Positions 46,904 to 55,196 of a DNA stretch of 64,000 bases are shown here, piece after piece; positions within the stretch are counted from its first letter, which is position 1; each line of letters starts with the position of its first letter. The notes beneath the pieces were generated by a model. It ran no database searches. It saw nothing but the letters and a program-made list of their open reading frames with translations, and was not told where the DNA came from. This DNA comes from Candidatus Aristotella avistercoris (GTDB taxonomy: Bacteria; Bacillota; Clostridia; Oscillospirales; Ruminococcaceae), in assembly GCA_904397835.1 (NCBI GenBank), contig CAJFOV010000045.1, forward strand, positions 4,078 to 68,077, in the 5' to 3' direction. The translations under genes and the position numbers were made by a program.

Positions 46904-48184
46904 ATGGCACAAAAGCTGAGAGCTGTTCACTATATCAACCAATTCTTTGCCCAACTGGGGGGCGAGGACTCCGCCAGTGTGGGCATCCAGGTCCGGCAGG
47001 GCCCCGTGGGCCCCGGCCTGGGGCTGCAGAAGGCCCTGGGGGACCGGGCGGAGATTGTGGCCACCATCATCTGCGGCGACAACTACATCGCAGAAAAGCT
47101 GGATGAGGTGGTGCCCCAGGTGCTGCAGGAGATCAAAAGCTGCGCCCCGGACCTGTTCTTTGCCGGGCCCGCCTTCAACGCCGGACGGTACGGGGTGGCC
47201 TGCGGGGCCCTGTGCGCGGCGGTCAAAAAGGAGCTGGGCATTCCGGCGGTGACGGCCATGTATCAGGAGAACCCGGGGGTGGAGCTCTACCGCTCGGATC
47301 TGTTTATCCTCAAGGCGGGGGACAACGCCCGTACCATGGCTCAGGAGACCCAAAAGATGGCCGATTTTGCCTTCAAGCTGCGGGAGAACCAGGTTCAGGG
47401 CTTCCCCGAGGAGGAGGGCTTCTATGAGCGGGGCTGGATGAAGCTGACCCGTTCGGATAAATTGGCCAGCCAGCGGGGGGTGGATATGCTGTTGGCAAAG
47501 CTCCAACACCGGCCCTTCCAGACGGAGATCCCCCTGCCCCACAGGGACGAGGTGCCAAGACCCGCCCCGGTGAAGGATCTGCGCCACACCACTGTCGCCT
47601 TTGCCACCGACGGCGGCCTGTACCCTGCGGGGAACCCGGATAAGATGCCCCCGGCCAACTCCACCACCTTCCACGCCTACTCCATGGATGGCCAGGACAC
47701 CCTGAAGAAGGAGGACTACACCATCATCCACAATGGGTTTGATAAGACCTTCCTCCTGCAGGACCCCAACCGGATTGTGCCCCTGGACGCCATGCGCACC
47801 CTGGAGAAGGAGGGCAAGGTGCGCATGTACCCGGAGTTCCTCTCCACCACAGGCCTGACCACCAATGTGGTCAACAGCCAGAAGATCGGCAAGAGCATGG
47901 CCCAGTACTGCCGGGAACACAATATTGACGCTGTTGTCCTCACCTCCACCTGAGGCACCAGCACGCGCTGCGGTGCAGTGATTGTCAAAGAGTTGGAGCG
48001 GGCTGGGATTCCCACCGTCCAGTACTGCAACATGACCCCGGTGGCCGAGTCCATCGGCGTCAACCGGATCTGTCCCTCCACCAGCATCAAATACCCCTTT
48101 GGCGCCCCGGACCTCCCCCCGGAGGAGGAGAAGGCCGCCCGGGTCAAAATGTTGGAGAGGGCCCTGGATTGCCTGACCGAGTAG
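46904..48184 (+). CDS. GrdB/GrdF/GrdH-family selenoprotein B homologue (UGA-Sec at codon 350)
   Basis: Track ORFs 46904..47953 and 47978..48184 share one frame and are separated only by TGA 47951-47953. Read-through gives ...AVVLTST-U-GTSTRCGAVIVKELERAGIP..., matching the Sec site of GrdB. N-terminus MAQKLRAVHYINQFFAQLGGED and AGPAFNAGRYGVACG are family-typical. Confidence 0.8.
47955..47976 (+). promoter_or_regulatory. Candidate SECIS-like hairpin downstream of the UGA
   Basis: GCACC/GGTGC (5 bp) plus AGC/GCT (3 bp) separated by a 2-nt bulge, loop ACGC. Starts 2 nt after the UGA. The geometry has not been checked against a SECIS model. Confidence 0.3.
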
Positions 48185-48242
48185 TCCCCAGGATAGAGCG
48201 CCAGGTGATTGGCCACATCTACAATCGGATCTGACAGAACAA

Positions 48243-48276
48243 AGGTCCCCCGCCGGATCATACCGGCGGGGGACCT
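48243..48276. other. 14-bp GC-rich hairpin between convergent genes
   Basis: AGGTCCCCCGCCGG-ATCATA-CCGGCGGGGGACCT. There is no clear U tract on either strand. Confidence 0.6.
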
Positions 48277-48299
48277 GATGTATCTCAATGGATTGGTAC

Positions 48300-48743
48300 C
48301 TACCCCTCCTGATGGACCAGCACCAGCTGGTCGTCGGTGGTGGCGTTCTGATAGGTGATGGTGTTCTTCTCCGGGTCATAGGTGCCCACGGTGTCCTGGC
48401 CGTTGACGGTCATGGTCAGCTGCTCCCCCTCCAGGGTATAGGTGCCCTCCACGGTCATCCCCATCATGGCGGCGGTCATTTTGCCGTCGCCCTCAAAGGT
48501 GTAGGTGATGTTGGTCAGGCTCTTGAGGGACTCATACTCCTCGCTGCCCTCCAGGAGGCCGGTGCGCTCTAACCCCTCCTTGATATAGTCGTCATAGGAC
48601 TGCTCGCTTCCATCCCCGGCAATGACCGTGCCAGGGACATAGGTGCCGCCCAGGGTGTTCTTCTTCTCCCCGCAGCCGGTGAGGGCCAGCAGCAGGGCGG
48701 CAAGGGTCAGGGTGAGGGCAAAAACTTTGGTCCATCTCTTCAT
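48300..48743 (-). CDS. Lipoprotein (paralogue A)
   Basis: MKRWTKVFALTLTLAALLLALTGC lipobox. Paralogous to 49763..50209 (shared TLGG.Y.PG, EQSY..Y, EGTYTL.G, TYDPE.NT). Confidence 0.7.
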   Translation of the reverse strand: MKRWTKVFALTLTLAALLLALTGCGEKKNTLGGTYVPGTVIAGDGSEQSYDDYIKEGLERTGLLEGSEEYESLKSLTNITYTFEGDGKMTAAMMGMTVEGTYTLEGEQLTMTVNGQDTVGTYDPEKNTITYQNATTDDQLVLVHQEG

Positions 48744-49034
48744 ATTCTTCTTCCACCTTTCCAATTGTTGGACCCCACGCCCCAGCCACGGGGGCGGGCG
48801 GTGCCGATGGTTTCAGTGTACCACAGACCGGAAAGATCTGGCAATAGGTCCGCTGTTGCAGCTTTGGACTTCATCCCTGGATTTCCCACCCCTAAAACTT
48901 GGGTAAATTCAAAAAAATAGAATATTGCACCAAAAAACATAGATTTTACAAATTTTAATCCAACTGCTAGAATAGAAGGGGGAAGTGGCATCTCCCATCC
49001 CCAAAAAGGTTTGAAGAAGAAAGAAGGGATTCCG

Positions 49035-49607
49035 TTGATTTGCAACATGTGTGGAGCCAGCTACGAGGATAGTCTGCCCCAATGCCCCTACTGTGGCGCT
49101 CCCCAGGGGCAGACTGCGGAGCACACCGTCCCCGTGCCGGAGGAGGGGGCAGCTAGCCTAAATGCAGAAGCTGCAGTTGACCTGCCCAGAACAGGGCGGC
49201 CCACCTCCAAACGGATGGTCCTTATTGCTGCGGCTGTGGGGCTGGTCATTGTGGCACTGCTGGCGGTTCTGTTGGTGGTCTGGCCCAACATGACCCAGAA
49301 GCGATTTCATGAGGAACTTCAGGGCACCTGGGCCATCCAGCTGGGCTATTCTGACGAGCCCTATGGCGCCAAGATGGTCATTGCTGAGGAGGAGATGGAT
49401 CTGGTCTTCTATGCCGGCACCGTTGAGTTGCCGGTGGGCACCATCTCCTATGAAGTGGTGAAGGATGGCGTCATCCGTTTCCCTGAGGCCAAAACCGAGG
49501 AGCCGCCGGAGTTCCAGGTGGAGATCCGTGACCAAAGGGGAACCATGCGCATTTCCCCCGCCCCCTTTGGCGACGGAACCGACGGCGACTGGTACCGGGA
49601 GGAGTGA
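49035..49607 (+). CDS. Zinc-ribbon, single-pass membrane protein
   Basis: N-terminal CNMCG...CPYCG ribbon, TM helix MVLIAAAVGLVIVALLAVLLVVW, and an extracytoplasmic domain. Start uncertain: track TTG 49011, TTG 49035 with an AAGAAGGGA RBS, or ATG 49047. Confidence 0.6.
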   Translation: MICNMCGASYEDSLPQCPYCGAPQGQTAEHTVPVPEEGAASLNAEAAVDLPRTGRPTSKRMVLIAAAVGLVIVALLAVLLVVWPNMTQKRFHEELQGTWAIQLGYSDEPYGAKMVIAEEEMDLVFYAGTVELPVGTISYEVVKDGVIRFPEAKTEEPPEFQVEIRDQRGTMRISPAPFGDGTDGDWYREE

Positions 49608-49653
49608 TCCCCCTTCCGGCGGCCGCTGCCTGCCAGTGCAGCAAAAGAGGACA

Positions 49654-49700
49654 TGCCAAAGGCGCGCCCGGTGGGACGCGCCTTTGGCACATTTTTTTCT
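49654..49700 (+). terminator. Rho-independent terminator of the zinc-ribbon gene
   Basis: 13-bp stem TGCCAAAGGCGCG/CGCGCCTTTGGCA followed by CATTTTTTTC. Confidence 0.8.
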
Positions 49701-49762
49701 TCAAACCCAAGTGGGTGGTGGCAACATTGCATGGCCGAAGGGGTCTGGCAGAATCCGTTCCC

Positions 49763-50209
49763 CTACTGGCTGGCGGAGGTGTCTGCCTCCGGCTCAAGGA
49801 TCCACACATCCCCGTCCGACTCTGTGAAGGTCAGGGTGTTGTTCTCCGGGTCATAGGTGGCGCTGGTCTCCTCGCCGCCCATGGTGATGGTCACAGTGTT
49901 TCCATCCAATGTGTAGGTGCCCTCCGACTGGGCGGCAACTGTGGTCTGCACCACAACGCCGTTCTCTTGAAAGTCGTAGCTGTAGTAGTACATGGCCCGC
50001 AGGGACTCATAGAAGGGGTTGTCCCGGATATCGGCGGTGGCCTCGTCCACATACTCCTCATAGGACTGCTCCTGACTGCCGCTGGGGATGATCCGTCCCG
50101 GGCTGTAGACGCCGCCAAGGGTGTACTTCTCTCCGCCGCAGGCCGCCAAAGAGAGCGCCAAGAGCACCGCCGTCAGGCGGAGGGCCAGGCGCTTGCATGT
50201 CTGTTTCAT
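49763..50209 (-). CDS. Lipoprotein (paralogue B)
   Basis: MKQTCKRLALRLTAVLLALSLAAC lipobox. The leader and RBS region is also similar to that of paralogue A. Confidence 0.7.
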   Translation of the reverse strand: MKQTCKRLALRLTAVLLALSLAACGGEKYTLGGVYSPGRIIPSGSQEQSYEEYVDEATADIRDNPFYESLRAMYYYSYDFQENGVVVQTTVAAQSEGTYTLDGNTVTITMGGEETSATYDPENNTLTFTESDGDVWILEPEADTSASQ

Positions 50210-50421
50210 GTTCTTCTTCCACCCTTCTGCAATGGCTTGTTTGATTTTCAGTATAAAATAAACTATTCTGGAATTCATTGTAACATCATTGAGCCGCCTG
50301 GCGTAGAAAGTGGAGTTATCTCCTGGAGAGAATTGGAGGAATGCAGAAAGAAAGCCGCCCGCCTTTGGACACTTTGCCAAGGGCGGGCGGCCACAGACTG
50401 TGCTATGATCTCCTGAGAGGG

Positions 50422-50994: not shown

Positions 50995-51091
50995 TGGGTT
51001 TCAAAAACTCCCTTCCGTGGTGAACTGACAACATAGGACGAATGCCCTACATCATATCCTGGGATTCGGGCCAATATCACCGGCCCAGGGG

Positions 51092-51120
51092 CAAAAAAGA
51101 GGGACACGGTTCCGTGTCCC
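51092..51120 (-). terminator. Rho-independent terminator of the DUF1847 gene
   Basis: On the minus strand, GGGACACG-GAAC-CGTGTCCC followed by TCTTTTTT. Lies 12 nt after the stop. Confidence 0.75.
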
Positions 51121-51131
51121 AAACTGGGTGC

Positions 51132-51761
51132 TTATTTTTGGTTGGGGAACAGCTTCTTCTGGTAGTAGGACTGGGCGGTGTAGACCGCCGCCAGGGGGTT
51201 GTGGCCCAACACCCGGTCCTTGACCGCCAGGACGGTGACGGGGGCCTTGGTGTTCTGCAGGAAGATGGTGTCGTGTCCCACACACAGGCCCAGTACCACA
51301 TTGAGCTGGGTGCCTGCTTTGGCCAGGAACATGGCCTGCCCAGCGGGGTTGCACATGGCCTCAAAGGTGCCGTCGGGCTCCATGCCAGGGATCCCCACAT
51401 CCGCCTTGTTGACGGAGGAACACTTGCAGCAGACGGTATGCACCGTCAAGCCCTGCTCCCGGAAGTACCGGGCCACCACCTTGCACTCGTTCTGCAGGCC
51501 GGTGCAGAAGGCGATACCGATGGTCTCATAGCCCATTTTTTTGCAGAAGAGGGCGATCTCCTGGATACGGGTCAGCTGGCAGTAGCCCTCCTTCTCCACT
51601 TCGGCGGCCTTTTGGGCGATGGCAAAGGTCTCAGGCTCCTTGGTCTTGGCAATGGCTTGGGCGGTGGTCTCCTGGTCCCGGCAGGGGCAGTTGGCAGGGT
51701 AGGGGGTGGCCCCATGGTTGGTGCAGGATTTGACCGCACATTCGCTGCAGGTATACATCAT
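51132..51761 (-). CDS. DUF1847-like Cys-rich metal-binding protein
   Basis: MMYTCSECAVKSC...NCPC...CCKC Cys pattern and size match my memory of DUF1847. GGAGAGGAG RBS. Confidence 0.6.
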   Translation of the reverse strand: MMYTCSECAVKSCTNHGATPYPANCPCRDQETTAQAIAKTKEPETFAIAQKAAEVEKEGYCQLTRIQEIALFCKKMGYETIGIAFCTGLQNECKVVARYFREQGLTVHTVCCKCSSVNKADVGIPGMEPDGTFEAMCNPAGQAMFLAKAGTQLNVVLGLCVGHDTIFLQNTKAPVTVLAVKDRVLGHNPLAAVYTAQSYYQKKLFPNQK

Positions 51762-51989
51762 CACAACAAGCTCCTCTCCAAAAGAAATGCCAGAAGGTCG
51801 CGGGGAGATTCTGGCAGATGGCGGGGCAGCAGAGCCCCGGATTCGACACAAGATTCAATTTCCATCTTATCGCAGGGCCAGGCGTTTGTCAAATCCAAAT
51901 TGACCGTTTGGTACCACAAAATGCGGCTGGCCCTTTTCCAGCAGATTGCAGCCCCCTGGGAGATCCCCAGAGCGGCCTTTGATGCGCTC

Positions 51990-52518
51990 CTATTCTGCAA
52001 AACCGTTGGCCTGGTACCAGGCCAGGGCGCGCTGCTCCAGGGCTTTGACAAAGGCGTCCTTCCCATCGCAGTAGCCCTCAATGTCCAAAGGGTATTGGGC
52101 GGCCAATGCTACCTTGAGGGCCCCGTAGTCCTGGCAGTCCTGGGGATGGGTGCGCAGGTAGTCCCGCACCGCCAGGTGGCGCTGGATGTCGTGGCGGTTG
52201 TCCTGCTGAAAGATGTGGATCTGATGGGTGCGGTGATCCCCGCCCTTGCGCAGGTAACGCCTCCCCGGGAGGCCAAACTCCCCCAGATATTCATATCCCA
52301 GGGCCTCAAAGGCCCCCTGCTGCGCATCCGCCCGAGCCAGATCGGTCACCACCGGCAGAATGTCAATGATGGGCTTGGCCGAAAGGCCTGGCACGCTGGT
52401 ACTGCCAATGTGGTGGATGGCAACCAATGCATCCCCCAGAACCTGCCGGATGGCTTCGGCCTCCTGTGCATACGCCTCTGGCCAACGGCTGTCATAGGGC
52501 ACCACTGTCACATACATT
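51990..52518 (-). CDS. GrpB family protein
   Basis: VVPYDSRWPEAYAQEAEAIRQVLGDALVAIHHIGSTSVPGLSAKPIIDI is GrpB-typical. AGGAGG lies 8 nt before ATG 52518. The track ORF is over-extended upstream. Confidence 0.85.
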
Positions 52519-52774
52519 GGACATGCCTCCTTTGATGTGGGCGCTTCCGGCCCGGTTTGACAGGGGAGCCACAGAGTCCCCTGTGGCCGCAGGATCCAGG
52601 CATCCCCTCCAATTGCCCTTATTCTACCAAAACCGGCGTGAAAAGTCACGGCCAAAGAGAAAATACATGCCTCCTGAGGGGGCAAAGGGTCTATCGACGG
52701 TTTTCCCCTTGCTTGCCAAGGGGGCCGCGCTATGATACAGTGGTAGACAAGCCATTGTTGCACTGACAGAAAGG

Positions 52775-55098: not shown

Positions 55099-55196
55099 AC
55101 CTTATCAAGAGTGACGGAGGGAACAGGCCCTGTGAAGTCCAGCAACCTGCCATGTGCAAGGTGCTACATCCTGCGGTGAACCGAGAGATGAGGAAT
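55099..55196 (+). promoter_or_regulatory. SAM-I (S-box) riboswitch aptamer
   Basis: CTTATCAAGAGTGACGGAGGGAACAGGCCCTGTGAAGTCCAGCAACC...GGTGCTACATCC...GAGAGATGAG matches the S-box consensus blocks. P1 pairs CUUAUC with GAUGAG. It lies upstream of metK. Confidence 0.9.

What the first reader, a model, noticed from the sequence alone, without database searches (positions are those of the whole stretch)
46904..48184. In-frame UGA joins two track ORFs into one GrdB-family selenoprotein
ORF 46904..47953 ends at TGA 47951-47953. ORF 47978..48184 is in the same frame (47978-46904=1074, divisible by 3), and no other stop lies between them. Read-through gives ...HNIDAVVLTST-[UGA]-GTSTRCGAVIVKELERAGIPTVQY... 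The stop sits where selenoprotein B of glycine/sarcosine/betaine reductases carries selenocysteine, and the upstream 349 residues are collinear with that family. Standard gene callers would report a truncated gene plus an orphan 68-aa ORF.
Basis: partly seen in the sequence, partly recalled or inferred. Interest (0 to 1): 0.7.

Follow-up and report, generated by a model that had tools for sequence, protein, structure and literature searches.

The report
Selenoprotein B gene split by UGA
The TGA at 47951 almost certainly encodes selenocysteine inside one 426-residue GrdB-family reductase subunit; that recoding is textbook, but this protein belongs to an unstudied branch of the family whose substrate is unknown.

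Summary
ATG 46904 to TAG 48184 is one frame broken only by TGA 47951-47953. The read-through product passes the selenoprotein B family models (Pfam GRDB 446 bits; TIGR01918 470 bits). All 85 related genes examined carry TGA at this position, with a conserved frame after it. Coding GC3 is 0.85 before the TGA, 0.86 after it and 0.61 after the TAG. The next 70 codons are under purifying selection. A hairpin at 47966-47980 has frozen synonymous sites and compensatory changes. TGA is a normal stop for 9 of 42 window genes.

The protein is not glycine, sarcosine or betaine reductase proper; it misses all three equivalog cut-offs. It sits in a deep clade with U-x-x-S-x-x-C instead of U-x-x-C-x-x-C. 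Its partner (45602-46876) has Tyr236 where GrdE has the pyruvoyl-forming Cys. Only the fluoroacetate reductase FarBE is described with both departures.

A dicarboxylate-type DASS symporter and a LysR regulator recur beside the pair. Close relatives also sit next to grdA, trxB, trxA, grdC and grdD, and in Sporobacter next to selA-selB.

Verdict: a correct call of a known recoding. It is a new member of a known kind with an unknown, probably anionic, substrate. Sec machinery in this genome could not be checked.

The parts
42767..44287 (-). DASS-family sodium-coupled anion (dicarboxylate-type) symporter, transcribed divergently; candidate substrate importer
   Evidence: Pfam Na_sulph_symp 184 bits and CitMHS 91 bits. 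Nearest solved structures are plastid DiT2.1/DiT1 and VcINDY. A homologous transporter lies next to the E-like/B-like pair in L002, L008, L083, L084/85 and L086.
44488..45429 (+). LysR-family transcriptional regulator just upstream of the pair; ends with an ordinary TGA stop
   Evidence: Pfam HTH_1 plus LysR_substrate. LysR genes recur beside the module in L008, L083, L084 and L086. It is not the selenium-associated LysR equivalog (NF040786 80 bits, cut-off 250). TGA stop.
45436..45479 (+). Two overlapping sigma-70-like promoter matches upstream of the E-like gene (weak evidence)
   Evidence: Consensus scan, 9 of 12 matches each. Pattern match only.
45602..46876 (+). GrdE-like component B partner subunit (424 aa), predicted not to be a proprotein: Tyr236 (codon 46307-46309) replaces the pyruvoyl-forming Cys
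   Evidence: Pfam Gly_reductase 312 bits. The best NCBIfam match is FarE at 266 bits (cut-off 675), then GrdG at 224 (cut-off 780). Canonical 'SGN-C-VSACDK' aligns to the window's 'DRD-Y-GQLINAD'. ATG 45602 has a GAAAGGAG Shine-Dalgarno site and matches a 424-aa homologue that is 99% identical.
46891..46895 (+). Shine-Dalgarno GGAGG, 8 nt before ATG 46904
   Evidence: Read directly from the sequence.
46904..48184 (+). Full selenoprotein B-like gene: 426 codons including Sec350, then a TAG stop
   Evidence: Pfam GRDB 446 bits; TIGR01918 470 bits (cut-off 65); below the GrdB, GrdF and GrdH cut-offs. GC3 is continuous across the TGA. Post-TGA pN/pS is 0.24-0.33.
47951..47953 (+). UGA read as selenocysteine (residue 350) in motif T-S-T-U-G-T-S-T-R-C-G; Ser353 = 47960-47962, Cys356 = 47969-47971
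   Evidence: TGA in 85 of 85 homologous genes. No Cys homologue among the top 120. Coordinates.
47966..47980 (+). SECIS-like hairpin CGCUGC-GGU-GCAGUG, whose stem starts 12 nt after the UGA
   Evidence: Across 85 sequences 97.3% of cells pair, 24 cells carry compensatory changes, and no shuffle out of 500 matches this; slid registers reach only 14-72%. Synonymous sites are frozen: Cys+6 is TGC in 82 of 84 and Ala+8 is GCA in 83 of 85. Consensus fold.
48243..48276 (.). 14-bp GC-rich palindromic hairpin in the convergent intergenic region, after the true TAG stop
   Evidence: Terminator scan. The T-tail is on the minus strand, so it is formally the terminator of the convergent gene 48300-48764. 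No such element follows TGA 47953.

Best explanation
46904-48184 is one gene for a 426-residue GrdB-family selenoprotein in which UGA 47951 is decoded as selenocysteine (Sec350). Decoding is directed by a SelB-type hairpin at 47966-47980. Together with the co-transcribed GrdE-like subunit (45602-46876) it forms the substrate-specific 'protein B' component of a glycine-reductase-type system.

Shown here: the recoding signals; family membership; the absence of the pyruvoyl-forming Cys in the partner (Tyr236); the altered motif U-x-x-S-x-x-C; and the recurrent linkage to a DASS anion symporter, a LysR regulator and, in relatives, grdA-trxB-trxA-grdC-grdD.

Inferred: an anionic substrate of the form X-CH2-COO-, possibly a dianion or dicarboxylate, is imported by the DASS carrier. 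Because no pyruvoyl group can form, it is bound without a Schiff base, as in betaine reductase GrdHI and the proposed fluoroacetate reductase FarBE. The C-X bond is cleaved with Sec350 taking part. The carboxymethyl group passes to selenoprotein A, and protein C releases it as acetyl phosphate, with thioredoxin supplying the electrons. The genes for proteins A and C must lie elsewhere in this genome. The substrate is unknown.
For: Recoding:
- Full-length family HMM match across the UGA.
- TGA in 85 of 85 homologous genes, followed by a conserved extension of about 76 codons ending at about the same place.
- GC3 is 0.85, then 0.86, then 0.61 after the TAG.
- The post-TGA 70 codons are 63-74% identical to relatives, with pN/pS 0.24-0.33.
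- The hairpin shows covariation and frozen synonymous sites. In L089 it is re-formed by different bases that encode different amino acids.
- TGA is an ordinary stop for 9 of 42 window genes.
- The identical protein appears in independent assemblies.
- An AF2 model of a full-length clade homologue (pLDDT 88.7) puts Sec between strand 343-347 and helix 351-366. The post-Sec part supplies that helix, two further strands and later helices of the C-terminal domain.

Subfamily:
- A neighbour-joining tree separates 22 sequences with U-G-[T/S]-[S/G]-T-R-[C/S]-G from canonical UGTCTRCG.
- Every partner recovered in that clade lacks the Cys; 96 of 120 partner homologues have Tyr there.
- The far paper describes the same two departures for FarB and FarE (PMC10838667).

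Pathway link:
- Sporobacter: selA-selB-orf-E-B-trxB-trxA-grdA(UGA)-grdC-grdD.
- L084 and L086: the module lies next to grdA, trxB, trxA, grdC and grdD.
- DASS adjacency in six loci from different lineages.
Against: - No tRNA-Sec, selA, selB, selD, grdA, grdC, grdD or trxB lies in the 64-kb window, and the rest of the genome could not be read.
- Single-sequence folding of the hairpin region is no better than shuffled sequence (z = 0.16 to 0.44), so the RNA evidence is comparative only.
- Part of the hairpin's conservation is forced by the conserved R-C-G-A peptide.
- The substrate and the Schiff-base-free mechanism rest on analogy. FarBE itself is supported by transcriptomics, not enzymology.
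- The E-like protein scores far below the FarE cut-off (266 against 675).
- No expression or protein data exist for this gene.
Confidence: 0.85

Rival explanations
1. It is an ordinary glycine, sarcosine or betaine reductase protein B, as automated annotations of its relatives say, so the substrate is already known.
For: Sources label clade members 'glycine reductase', 'sarcosine reductase' or 'betain reductase'. In Sporobacter and in L086 the pair is the only protein B next to grdA-grdC-grdD in the stretch examined.
Against: Scores are below all three equivalog cut-offs: GrdB 410 against 602, GrdF 494 against 800, GrdH 463 against 775. Genuine GrdB (L043, L048) and GrdH (L011_17197) pass theirs. 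The partner lacks the Cys that forms the pyruvoyl group used for glycine and sarcosine. True GrdH keeps UxxCxxC and falls in the canonical clade. The linked transporter is a dicarboxylate-type DASS carrier. A betaine-type carrier would be expected for betaine reductase; that expectation rests on my own knowledge.
Confidence: 0.1
2. It is an orthologue of the fluoroacetate reductase FarBE and dehalogenates fluoroacetate.
For: The E-like subunit's best NCBIfam match is FarE. Both hallmarks are shared: no pyruvoyl Cys and a disrupted CxxC. One relative (L083) has a radical SAM gene after the pair, as farC has in farACEB.
Against: The FarE score is 266 against a cut-off of 675. The window has a DASS symporter, not the oxalate/formate-type MFS antiporter, and no radical SAM gene. 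The window protein keeps the second Cys, whereas farB is described as lacking the CxxC. No FarB sequence was available to place in the tree.
Confidence: 0.04
3. TGA 47951 is a real stop. The locus yields a truncated 349-aa protein, with or without a separate 68-aa peptide, or it is a decaying pseudogene.
For: Gene callers report exactly this. No Sec machinery is visible in the window.
Against: The eight codons between the TGA and GTG 47978 (GTSTRCGA) are conserved across phyla, yet would be untranslated in this model. No Shine-Dalgarno site precedes GTG 47978. Coding GC3 and purifying selection continue through the segment. A truncated product would lack part of the C-terminal α/β domain.
Confidence: 0.03
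4. The UGA is read through as something other than Sec (Trp, Gly or Cys), through an alternative genetic code or a suppressor tRNA.
For: Some catalogues translate homologues with W or G at this site.
Against: TGA ends 9 of 42 genes in this window, including the neighbouring LysR gene. The W and G calls are therefore artefacts of gene callers choosing code 4 or 25. The conserved hairpin is what SelB-dependent insertion needs. Relatives encode selA-selB next to the pair.
Confidence: 0.02

Closest known systems
Fluoroacetate reductase FarB/FarE of Cloacibacillus porcorum (farACEB operon; PMC10838667)
   Same: It is a GrdB/GrdE-type pair with Sec in the T-S-T-U-G motif. The E subunit lacks the cysteines for pyruvoyl formation and the B subunit has a disrupted CxxC after Sec. 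The pair is encoded with its own transporter, apart from grdA, grdC and grdD, and is proposed to feed proteins A and C. FarE is the best NCBIfam match of the window's partner.
   Different: The score is far below the FarE cut-off (266 against 675). The transporter is a DASS symporter rather than an MFS antiporter. The window has no radical SAM gene. The window protein retains Cys356. It comes from Clostridia rather than Synergistota.
Betaine reductase GrdH/GrdI
   Same: It is a protein B whose partner subunit is not a pyruvoyl proprotein, for a substrate that cannot form a Schiff base. The B subunit is a selenoprotein with the same SECIS hairpin.
   Different: GrdH keeps UxxCxxC and groups with canonical GrdB and GrdF. 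The reference GrdH (L011_17197) scores 784 against a cut-off of 775, the window protein 463. The partner has Phe in a different local motif.
Glycine reductase GrdB/GrdE and sarcosine reductase GrdF/GrdG
   Same: Same two-subunit architecture and the same Sec position and hairpin. Relatives use the same downstream partners: GrdA, thioredoxin system, GrdC and GrdD.
   Different: About 44-47% identity. Scores are below the equivalog cut-offs. The partner has Tyr236 in place of the self-cleaving Cys. Ser353 replaces the first Cys of UxxCxxC.
D-proline reductase PrdB/PrdA
   Same: PrdB is homologous to the C-terminal half that carries Sec (TIGR04483 72.6 bits on residues 223-424).
   Different: PrdB is a much shorter protein (model length 238), its partner PrdA is pyruvoyl-dependent, and the score is far below the cut-off of 300.

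Membership tests
Glycine/betaine/sarcosine/D-proline reductase family selenoprotein B (TIGR01918; Pfam PF07355 GRDB) | Whole-protein HMM score above the curated cut-off, with the match extending past the Sec position | tested here: met
   TIGR01918 470 bits (cut-off 65.45), residues 6-425 on model positions 1-421 of 431. PF07355 446 bits (cut-off 22).
Glycine/betaine/sarcosine/D-proline reductase family selenoprotein B (TIGR01918; Pfam PF07355 GRDB) | In-frame UGA at the conserved T-S-T-U-G position | tested here: met
   TGA 47951-47953. TGA at this position in 85 of 85 aligned genes.
Glycine/betaine/sarcosine/D-proline reductase family selenoprotein B (TIGR01918; Pfam PF07355 GRDB) | Bacterial SECIS hairpin shortly downstream of the UGA | tested here: met
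   The hairpin at 47966-47980 has a GGU loop, 97.3% pairing, 24 compensatory cells, 0 of 500 shuffles reaching this, and frozen synonymous sites. Single-sequence energy alone is not significant.
Glycine/betaine/sarcosine/D-proline reductase family selenoprotein B (TIGR01918; Pfam PF07355 GRDB) | U-x-x-C-x-x-C redox motif (as listed in PMC13188914) | tested here: not met
   The window has U-G-T-S-T-R-C: Ser353 replaces the first Cys and Cys356 is kept. The change is shared by the 22-sequence deep clade.
Glycine/betaine/sarcosine/D-proline reductase family selenoprotein B (TIGR01918; Pfam PF07355 GRDB) | Adjacent PF09338 partner subunit (GrdE/G/I type) | tested here: met
   45602-46876, Gly_reductase 312 bits, ending 27 nt before the B gene starts.
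Glycine/betaine/sarcosine/D-proline reductase family selenoprotein B (TIGR01918; Pfam PF07355 GRDB) | Genome encodes selA, selB, selC (tRNA-Sec) and selD | not testable with these tools
   None lies in the window. The source is an unnamed MAG whose other contigs could not be read. The relative S. termitidis has selA-selB directly upstream of the pair.
Glycine/betaine/sarcosine/D-proline reductase family selenoprotein B (TIGR01918; Pfam PF07355 GRDB) | Works with GrdA, GrdC, GrdD and the thioredoxin system | tested here: inconclusive
   These genes are absent from the 64-kb window. They lie next to the homologous pair in L001, L084/85 and L086, and L002 has a grdA.
Glycine reductase GrdB (TIGR01917) with GrdE | Equivalog score of at least 602.2 | tested here: not met
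   409.6 bits. Genuine GrdB from L043 and L048 score 679 and 736.
Glycine reductase GrdB (TIGR01917) with GrdE | Partner is a proprotein that self-cleaves at Asn-Cys to form a pyruvoyl group | tested here: not met
   Canonical 'SGN-C-VSACDK' aligns to the window's 'DRD-Y-GQLINAD'. Both cysteines are absent.
Sarcosine reductase GrdF/GrdG (NF040794, NF040793) | Scores of at least 800 (GrdF) and 780 (GrdG) | tested here: not met
   493.5 and 224.4 bits.
Betaine reductase GrdH/GrdI (NF040795) | GrdH score of at least 775 | tested here: not met
   462.9 bits. The reference GrdH (L011_17197) scores 784 and lies in the canonical clade.
Betaine reductase GrdH/GrdI (NF040795) | Partner subunit is not processed (no pyruvoyl Cys) | tested here: met
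   Tyr236 sits at the processing position. This shows a shared property, not shared ancestry within the clade.
Fluoroacetate reductase FarB/FarE (NF053623 for FarE) | FarE score of at least 675 | tested here: not met
   266.2 bits. FarE is still the best-scoring named model.
Fluoroacetate reductase FarB/FarE (NF053623 for FarE) | E subunit lacks the pyruvoyl cysteines and B subunit lacks the CxxC after Sec (PMC10838667) | tested here: inconclusive
   The E-subunit part is met. The B-subunit part is only half met, because the first Cys is lost and the second kept. No FarB sequence was available for direct comparison.
Fluoroacetate reductase FarB/FarE (NF053623 for FarE) | Operon with an oxalate/formate-type MFS antiporter (farA) and a radical SAM gene (farC) | tested here: not met
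   The window has a DASS symporter and no radical SAM gene. A radical SAM gene follows the pair in relative L083.

The most novel reading that the evidence does not exclude
The DASS-linked clade (Tyr-type partner, UxxSxxC) is a glycine-reductase-type enzyme for a substrate class not yet known for this family. The substrate would be a dianionic or dicarboxylate compound cleaved reductively without a pyruvoyl cofactor. That would give gut and sediment Clostridia, Negativicutes and Sumerlaeota a previously unrecognised electron acceptor coupled to ATP formation through acetyl phosphate.
Probability: 0.45. Interest if true: 0.6.

Novelty: new member of a known kind. Interest (0 to 1): 0.3.

Why it matters
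For annotation, the case is routine but real. Public catalogues hold this gene as a 349-aa fragment plus a 68-aa orphan. Many relatives are either truncated at ...TST or translated with Trp or Gly at the Sec site because a gene caller picked genetic code 4 or 25.

For biology, the interest lies in the subfamily rather than in the UGA. Protein B decides which compound a glycine-reductase system can use as an electron acceptor. This branch lacks the pyruvoyl chemistry used for glycine and sarcosine, and it travels with a dicarboxylate-type carrier. It is widespread: about 90 clusters at 90% identity fall in the Tyr-type group. Among the 136 near-full-length representatives closest to the window's partner, only 8 keep the Cys.

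Identifying the substrate would add a new reductive branch to anaerobic fermentation in gut bacteria. It would also test whether the fluoroacetate activity reported for FarBE is a side activity of a broader enzyme class.

Tried and rejected
- Single-sequence folding of the region after the UGA gave energies no better than shuffles, so it was dropped as evidence in favour of comparative analysis.
- Rfam at gathering thresholds found no SECIS or tRNA-Sec, only a SAM riboswitch. ARAGORN found no tRNA.
- Pfam scans of about 50 window ORFs found no sel or grdA/C/D genes.
- Attempts to name the organism or reach other contigs of the MAG gave only unnamed records.
A Sec-to-Cys substitution does not count as a window sequence, and translations containing a stop are rejected. 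A full-length clade homologue (P0074) was modelled instead.
- A PDB sequence search found no relative. A Foldseek search of the PDB gave only generic two-lobe α/β folds with TM-scores around 0.2, so it was uninformative.
- Literature searches found no paper describing this subfamily or linking a DASS carrier to a Grd-type reductase. The library covers only open-access papers.
- One look-up (P0022, Oxobacter) returned nothing.
- The ungapped 'upstream 70 codons' comparison is probably distorted by indels and is not used.
- Candidate substrates such as sulfoacetate, diglycolate-type compounds and carboxymethylated amino acids were considered. None was adopted, because nothing in the data discriminates between them.
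Full report
**1. The observation**

- An ORF starts at ATG 46904, preceded by GGAGG at 46891-46895, and reaches TGA 47951-47953.
- The frame continues without another stop to TAG 48182-48184.
- GTG 47978, the start of the 68-aa 'orphan' ORF, is in the same frame.
- Read-through gives 426 residues with the UGA at position 350, in the peptide VVLTST-U-GTSTRCGAVIVKELERAGIPTVQY.
- This is the only in-frame TGA in the 64-kb window with a coding signature on both sides.
- Public gene catalogues hold exactly the 349-aa fragment and the 68-aa orphan, as predicted.

**2. Is the UGA decoded?**

Six independent lines say yes.

(a) Family match. The read-through product matches the selenoprotein B models end to end. 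Pfam GRDB scores 446 bits. TIGR01918 scores 470 bits against a cut-off of 65 and covers residues 6-425.

(b) Conservation of the TGA. In 78 of 80 related genome loci, 85 genes in all counting the window's, the homologous codon is TGA. The frame after it stays open and conserved. In the nearest relatives the extension runs about 76 codons and ends at about the same place.

(c) Coding signature. In-frame GC3 is 0.85 before the TGA, 0.86 after it, and 0.61 after the TAG. The 70 codons after the TGA are 63-74% identical to relatives whose synonymous sites are near saturation, giving pN/pS of 0.24-0.33.

(d) A SECIS-like hairpin. CGCUGC-GGU-GCAGUG at 47966-47980 is conserved beyond what the protein requires.
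- Cys+6 is TGC in 82 of 84 sequences, while Cys+3 is a TGT/TGC mix of 47 to 19.
- Ala+8 is GCA in 83 of 85 sequences, while other Ala codons use all four bases.
- Across 85 sequences 97.3% of cells pair, 24 cells carry changes on both sides, no shuffle out of 500 reaches this, and slid registers fall to 14-72%.
- In L089 different bases encoding different amino acids re-form a hairpin at the same place.
- The position and the G-containing loop fit the bacterial SECIS model as I know it. Folding energy of the single sequence is not significant by itself.

(e) No genome-wide reassignment. TGA is a normal stop for 9 of 42 window genes, including the adjacent LysR gene.

(f) No Cys homologues. None of the top 120 homologues has Cys at the site. 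93 are truncated at ...TST. Of the 27 longer than 400 aa, 24 read W and 2 read G at the site, which is the same TGA translated under code 4 or 25.

An AlphaFold model of a full-length clade homologue (pLDDT 88.7) places the Sec between a β-strand and the N-terminus of a helix. The post-Sec segment supplies that helix, two more strands and further helices of the C-terminal domain. A truncated product would therefore be structurally incomplete.

One test stays open. The window has no tRNA and no sel genes, and the rest of this unnamed chicken-caecum MAG could not be reached.

**3. What kind of protein B is it?**

It is not GrdB, GrdF or GrdH proper. Scores against the equivalog models are:

| Model | Window score (bits) | Cut-off |
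|---|---|---|
| GrdB (glycine) | 410 | 602 |
| GrdF (sarcosine) | 494 | 800 |
| GrdH (betaine) | 463 | 775 |

Genuine GrdB and GrdH taken from the related loci pass their cut-offs.

A tree of the 85 B-type proteins splits deeply in two.
- The canonical clade has U-G-T-C-T-R-C-G.
- A 22-sequence clade, which includes the window, has U-G-[T/S]-[S/G]-T-R-[C/S]-G.

The window protein reads U350-G-T-S353-T-R-C356, so the first Cys of the family's UxxCxxC motif (PMC13188914) is a Ser.

The partner gene (45602-46876, 424 aa, Pfam Gly_reductase) shows a matching change. Canonical GrdE reads SGN-C-VSACDK, the Asn-Cys site of self-cleavage that forms the pyruvoyl group. The window protein reads DRD-Y236-GQLINAD, and both cysteines are gone.
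- Every partner recovered in the deep clade lacks the Cys.
- 96 of 120 partner homologues have Tyr in a conserved [D/N]-Y-x4-N-A-D-P-[T/S]-[Y/F] motif.
- Among 136 near-full-length representatives from a library of 1.84 billion proteins, only 8 keep the Cys. That sample is biased towards the query's own type.

The same two departures are reported for the fluoroacetate reductase pair. In that paper farB lacks the CxxC, and farE lacks the two cysteines and is not a proprotein, like GrdI (PMC10838667). FarE is also the partner's best NCBIfam match, but at 266 bits against a cut-off of 675 it is not an orthologue.

**4. Gene context**

The window is from a spore-forming Clostridia chromosome of 59% G+C, with Spo0A, SpoIVB, GerA, YabP and YqfD. 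The local order is a DASS anion symporter (42767-44287, minus strand), a LysR regulator (44488-45429), the E-like gene and the B-like gene. A convergent gene follows after a strong hairpin at 48243-48276.

The DASS carrier's closest solved relatives are dicarboxylate transporters: plastid DiT2.1 and DiT1, and VcINDY.

The module recurs in other genomes:

| Locus | Source or identity to window B | Gene order |
|---|---|---|
| L008 | Alkaliphilus MAG | LysR, two E-B pairs, DASS |
| L002 | Selenomonadales MAG | E, B, DASS, with a grdA about 3 kb beyond the DASS gene |
| L083 | 71% | LysR, DASS, E, B, radical SAM |
| L084/85 | 69% | DASS/CitMHS, E, B, FAD oxidoreductase, LysR, grdA, trxB, trxA, grdC, grdD |
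| L086 | 56% | trxB, trxA, grdA, grdC, grdD, E, B, DASS, IclR, LysR |
| L001 | Sporobacter termitidis, 64% | selA, selB, orf, E, B, trxB, trxA, grdA (own UGA), grdC, grdD |

L083, L084 and L086 share the UGTSTRCG motif, the hairpin and the Tyr. A more distant clade member, P0074 (L089), instead sits with a lactate/glycolate-type permease, an α/β-hydrolase and a DsbA-like gene. Oxobacter pfennigii has at least four partner paralogues. Both facts point to substrate diversification within the clade.

**5. Most likely mechanism**

Shown: this is a Sec-containing protein B pair that cannot make a pyruvoyl group. It is genetically tied to an anion carrier and, in relatives, to proteins A and C and the thioredoxin system.

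Inferred, by analogy with the Andreesen glycine reductase scheme as summarised in PMC13188914 and PMC10838667:
- The carrier imports an anionic X-CH2-COO- type compound.
- Protein B binds it without a Schiff base and cleaves the C-X bond with Sec350 taking part.
- The carboxymethyl group is passed to the Sec of GrdA.
- GrdC and GrdD release it as acetyl phosphate.
- Thioredoxin re-reduces the system.

In this genome the A and C genes must lie outside the window, as they do for the far operon in Cloacibacillus. The substrate is unknown. A second negative charge is suggested only by the type of carrier.

**6. Rivals**
- Known-substrate glycine, sarcosine or betaine reductase: about 0.10. Sub-cut-off scores, the missing Cys and the clade position argue against it.
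- FarBE orthologue: about 0.04. The score and the operon content argue against it.
- True stop or pseudogene: about 0.03.
- Non-Sec read-through: about 0.02.

**7. Novelty and score**

UGA recoding in GrdB-family genes has been known since the 1990s, and the family model TIGR01918 recognises this protein. The finding as stated is correct but ordinary.

What goes beyond it is the placement in an uncharacterised branch: DASS-linked, non-pyruvoyl, with UxxSxxC. I found no paper describing this branch, and sources label it only generically.

I rate it a new member of a known kind, with interest 0.3. If the clade proves to reduce a new class of substrate (probability about 0.45), the interest would rise to about 0.6.

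Noticed in passing
window 55099-55194 (+), upstream of 55368-56555: SAM riboswitch (S-box, RF00162, 75 bits) directly upstream of the S-adenosylmethionine synthetase gene metK.
   Followed up: no
window 45608-48379 (-): A 923-aa ATG-started ORF runs antisense across both the E-like and B-like genes. It is longer than either real gene and looks like a shadow ORF typical of GC3-rich coding DNA. It would mislead length-based gene picking.
   Followed up: partly
proteins P0059-P0120: Of 27 GrdB homologues longer than 400 aa in the public catalogue, 24 carry Trp and 2 carry Gly at the Sec position. Gene callers evidently chose genetic code 4 or 25 for those contigs because of the in-frame TGA. This is a systematic annotation artefact.
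   Followed up: partly
L001 4898-8265 (Sporobacter termitidis DSM 10068): selA and selB lie immediately upstream of the homologous E-like/B-like pair, in the same orientation. They are followed by trxB, trxA, grdA (with its own UGA), grdC and grdD. The Sec machinery and its client operon are fused in one cluster.
   Followed up: partly
L008 6073-12894: Two E-like/B-like pairs in tandem, both UGTSTRCG with Tyr-type partners, sit between a divergent LysR and a DASS symporter in an Alkaliphilus MAG. Oxobacter pfennigii has at least four partner paralogues.
   Followed up: no
L068 11051 and L089 9048: Some deep-clade members have no Cys at all after Sec (U-G-T-S-T-R-S-G and U-G-T-S-S-R-G-G). A resolving Cys in this motif is therefore not universally required in the clade. 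L089's pair sits with a lactate/glycolate-type permease, an α/β-hydrolase and a DsbA-like gene.
   Followed up: partly
L083 11439-12326: A radical SAM gene directly follows the B-like gene in the relative that is 71% identical. This echoes farC in the farACEB operon. The window has no such gene.
   Followed up: no
window 49011-49607, 49604-50416 and 51042-52535 (+): Three sizeable ORFs downstream of the locus have no Pfam or NCBIfam match. 51042-52535 has an atypical codon-position GC pattern (GC1 0.73, GC3 0.62) and may not be a real gene.
   Followed up: no
window 48300-48764 and 49763-50380 (-): Two small proteins with DUF5640 (lipocalin-like) matches lie just downstream of the reductase pair. 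They are not conserved next to the pair in any related locus.
   Followed up: partly
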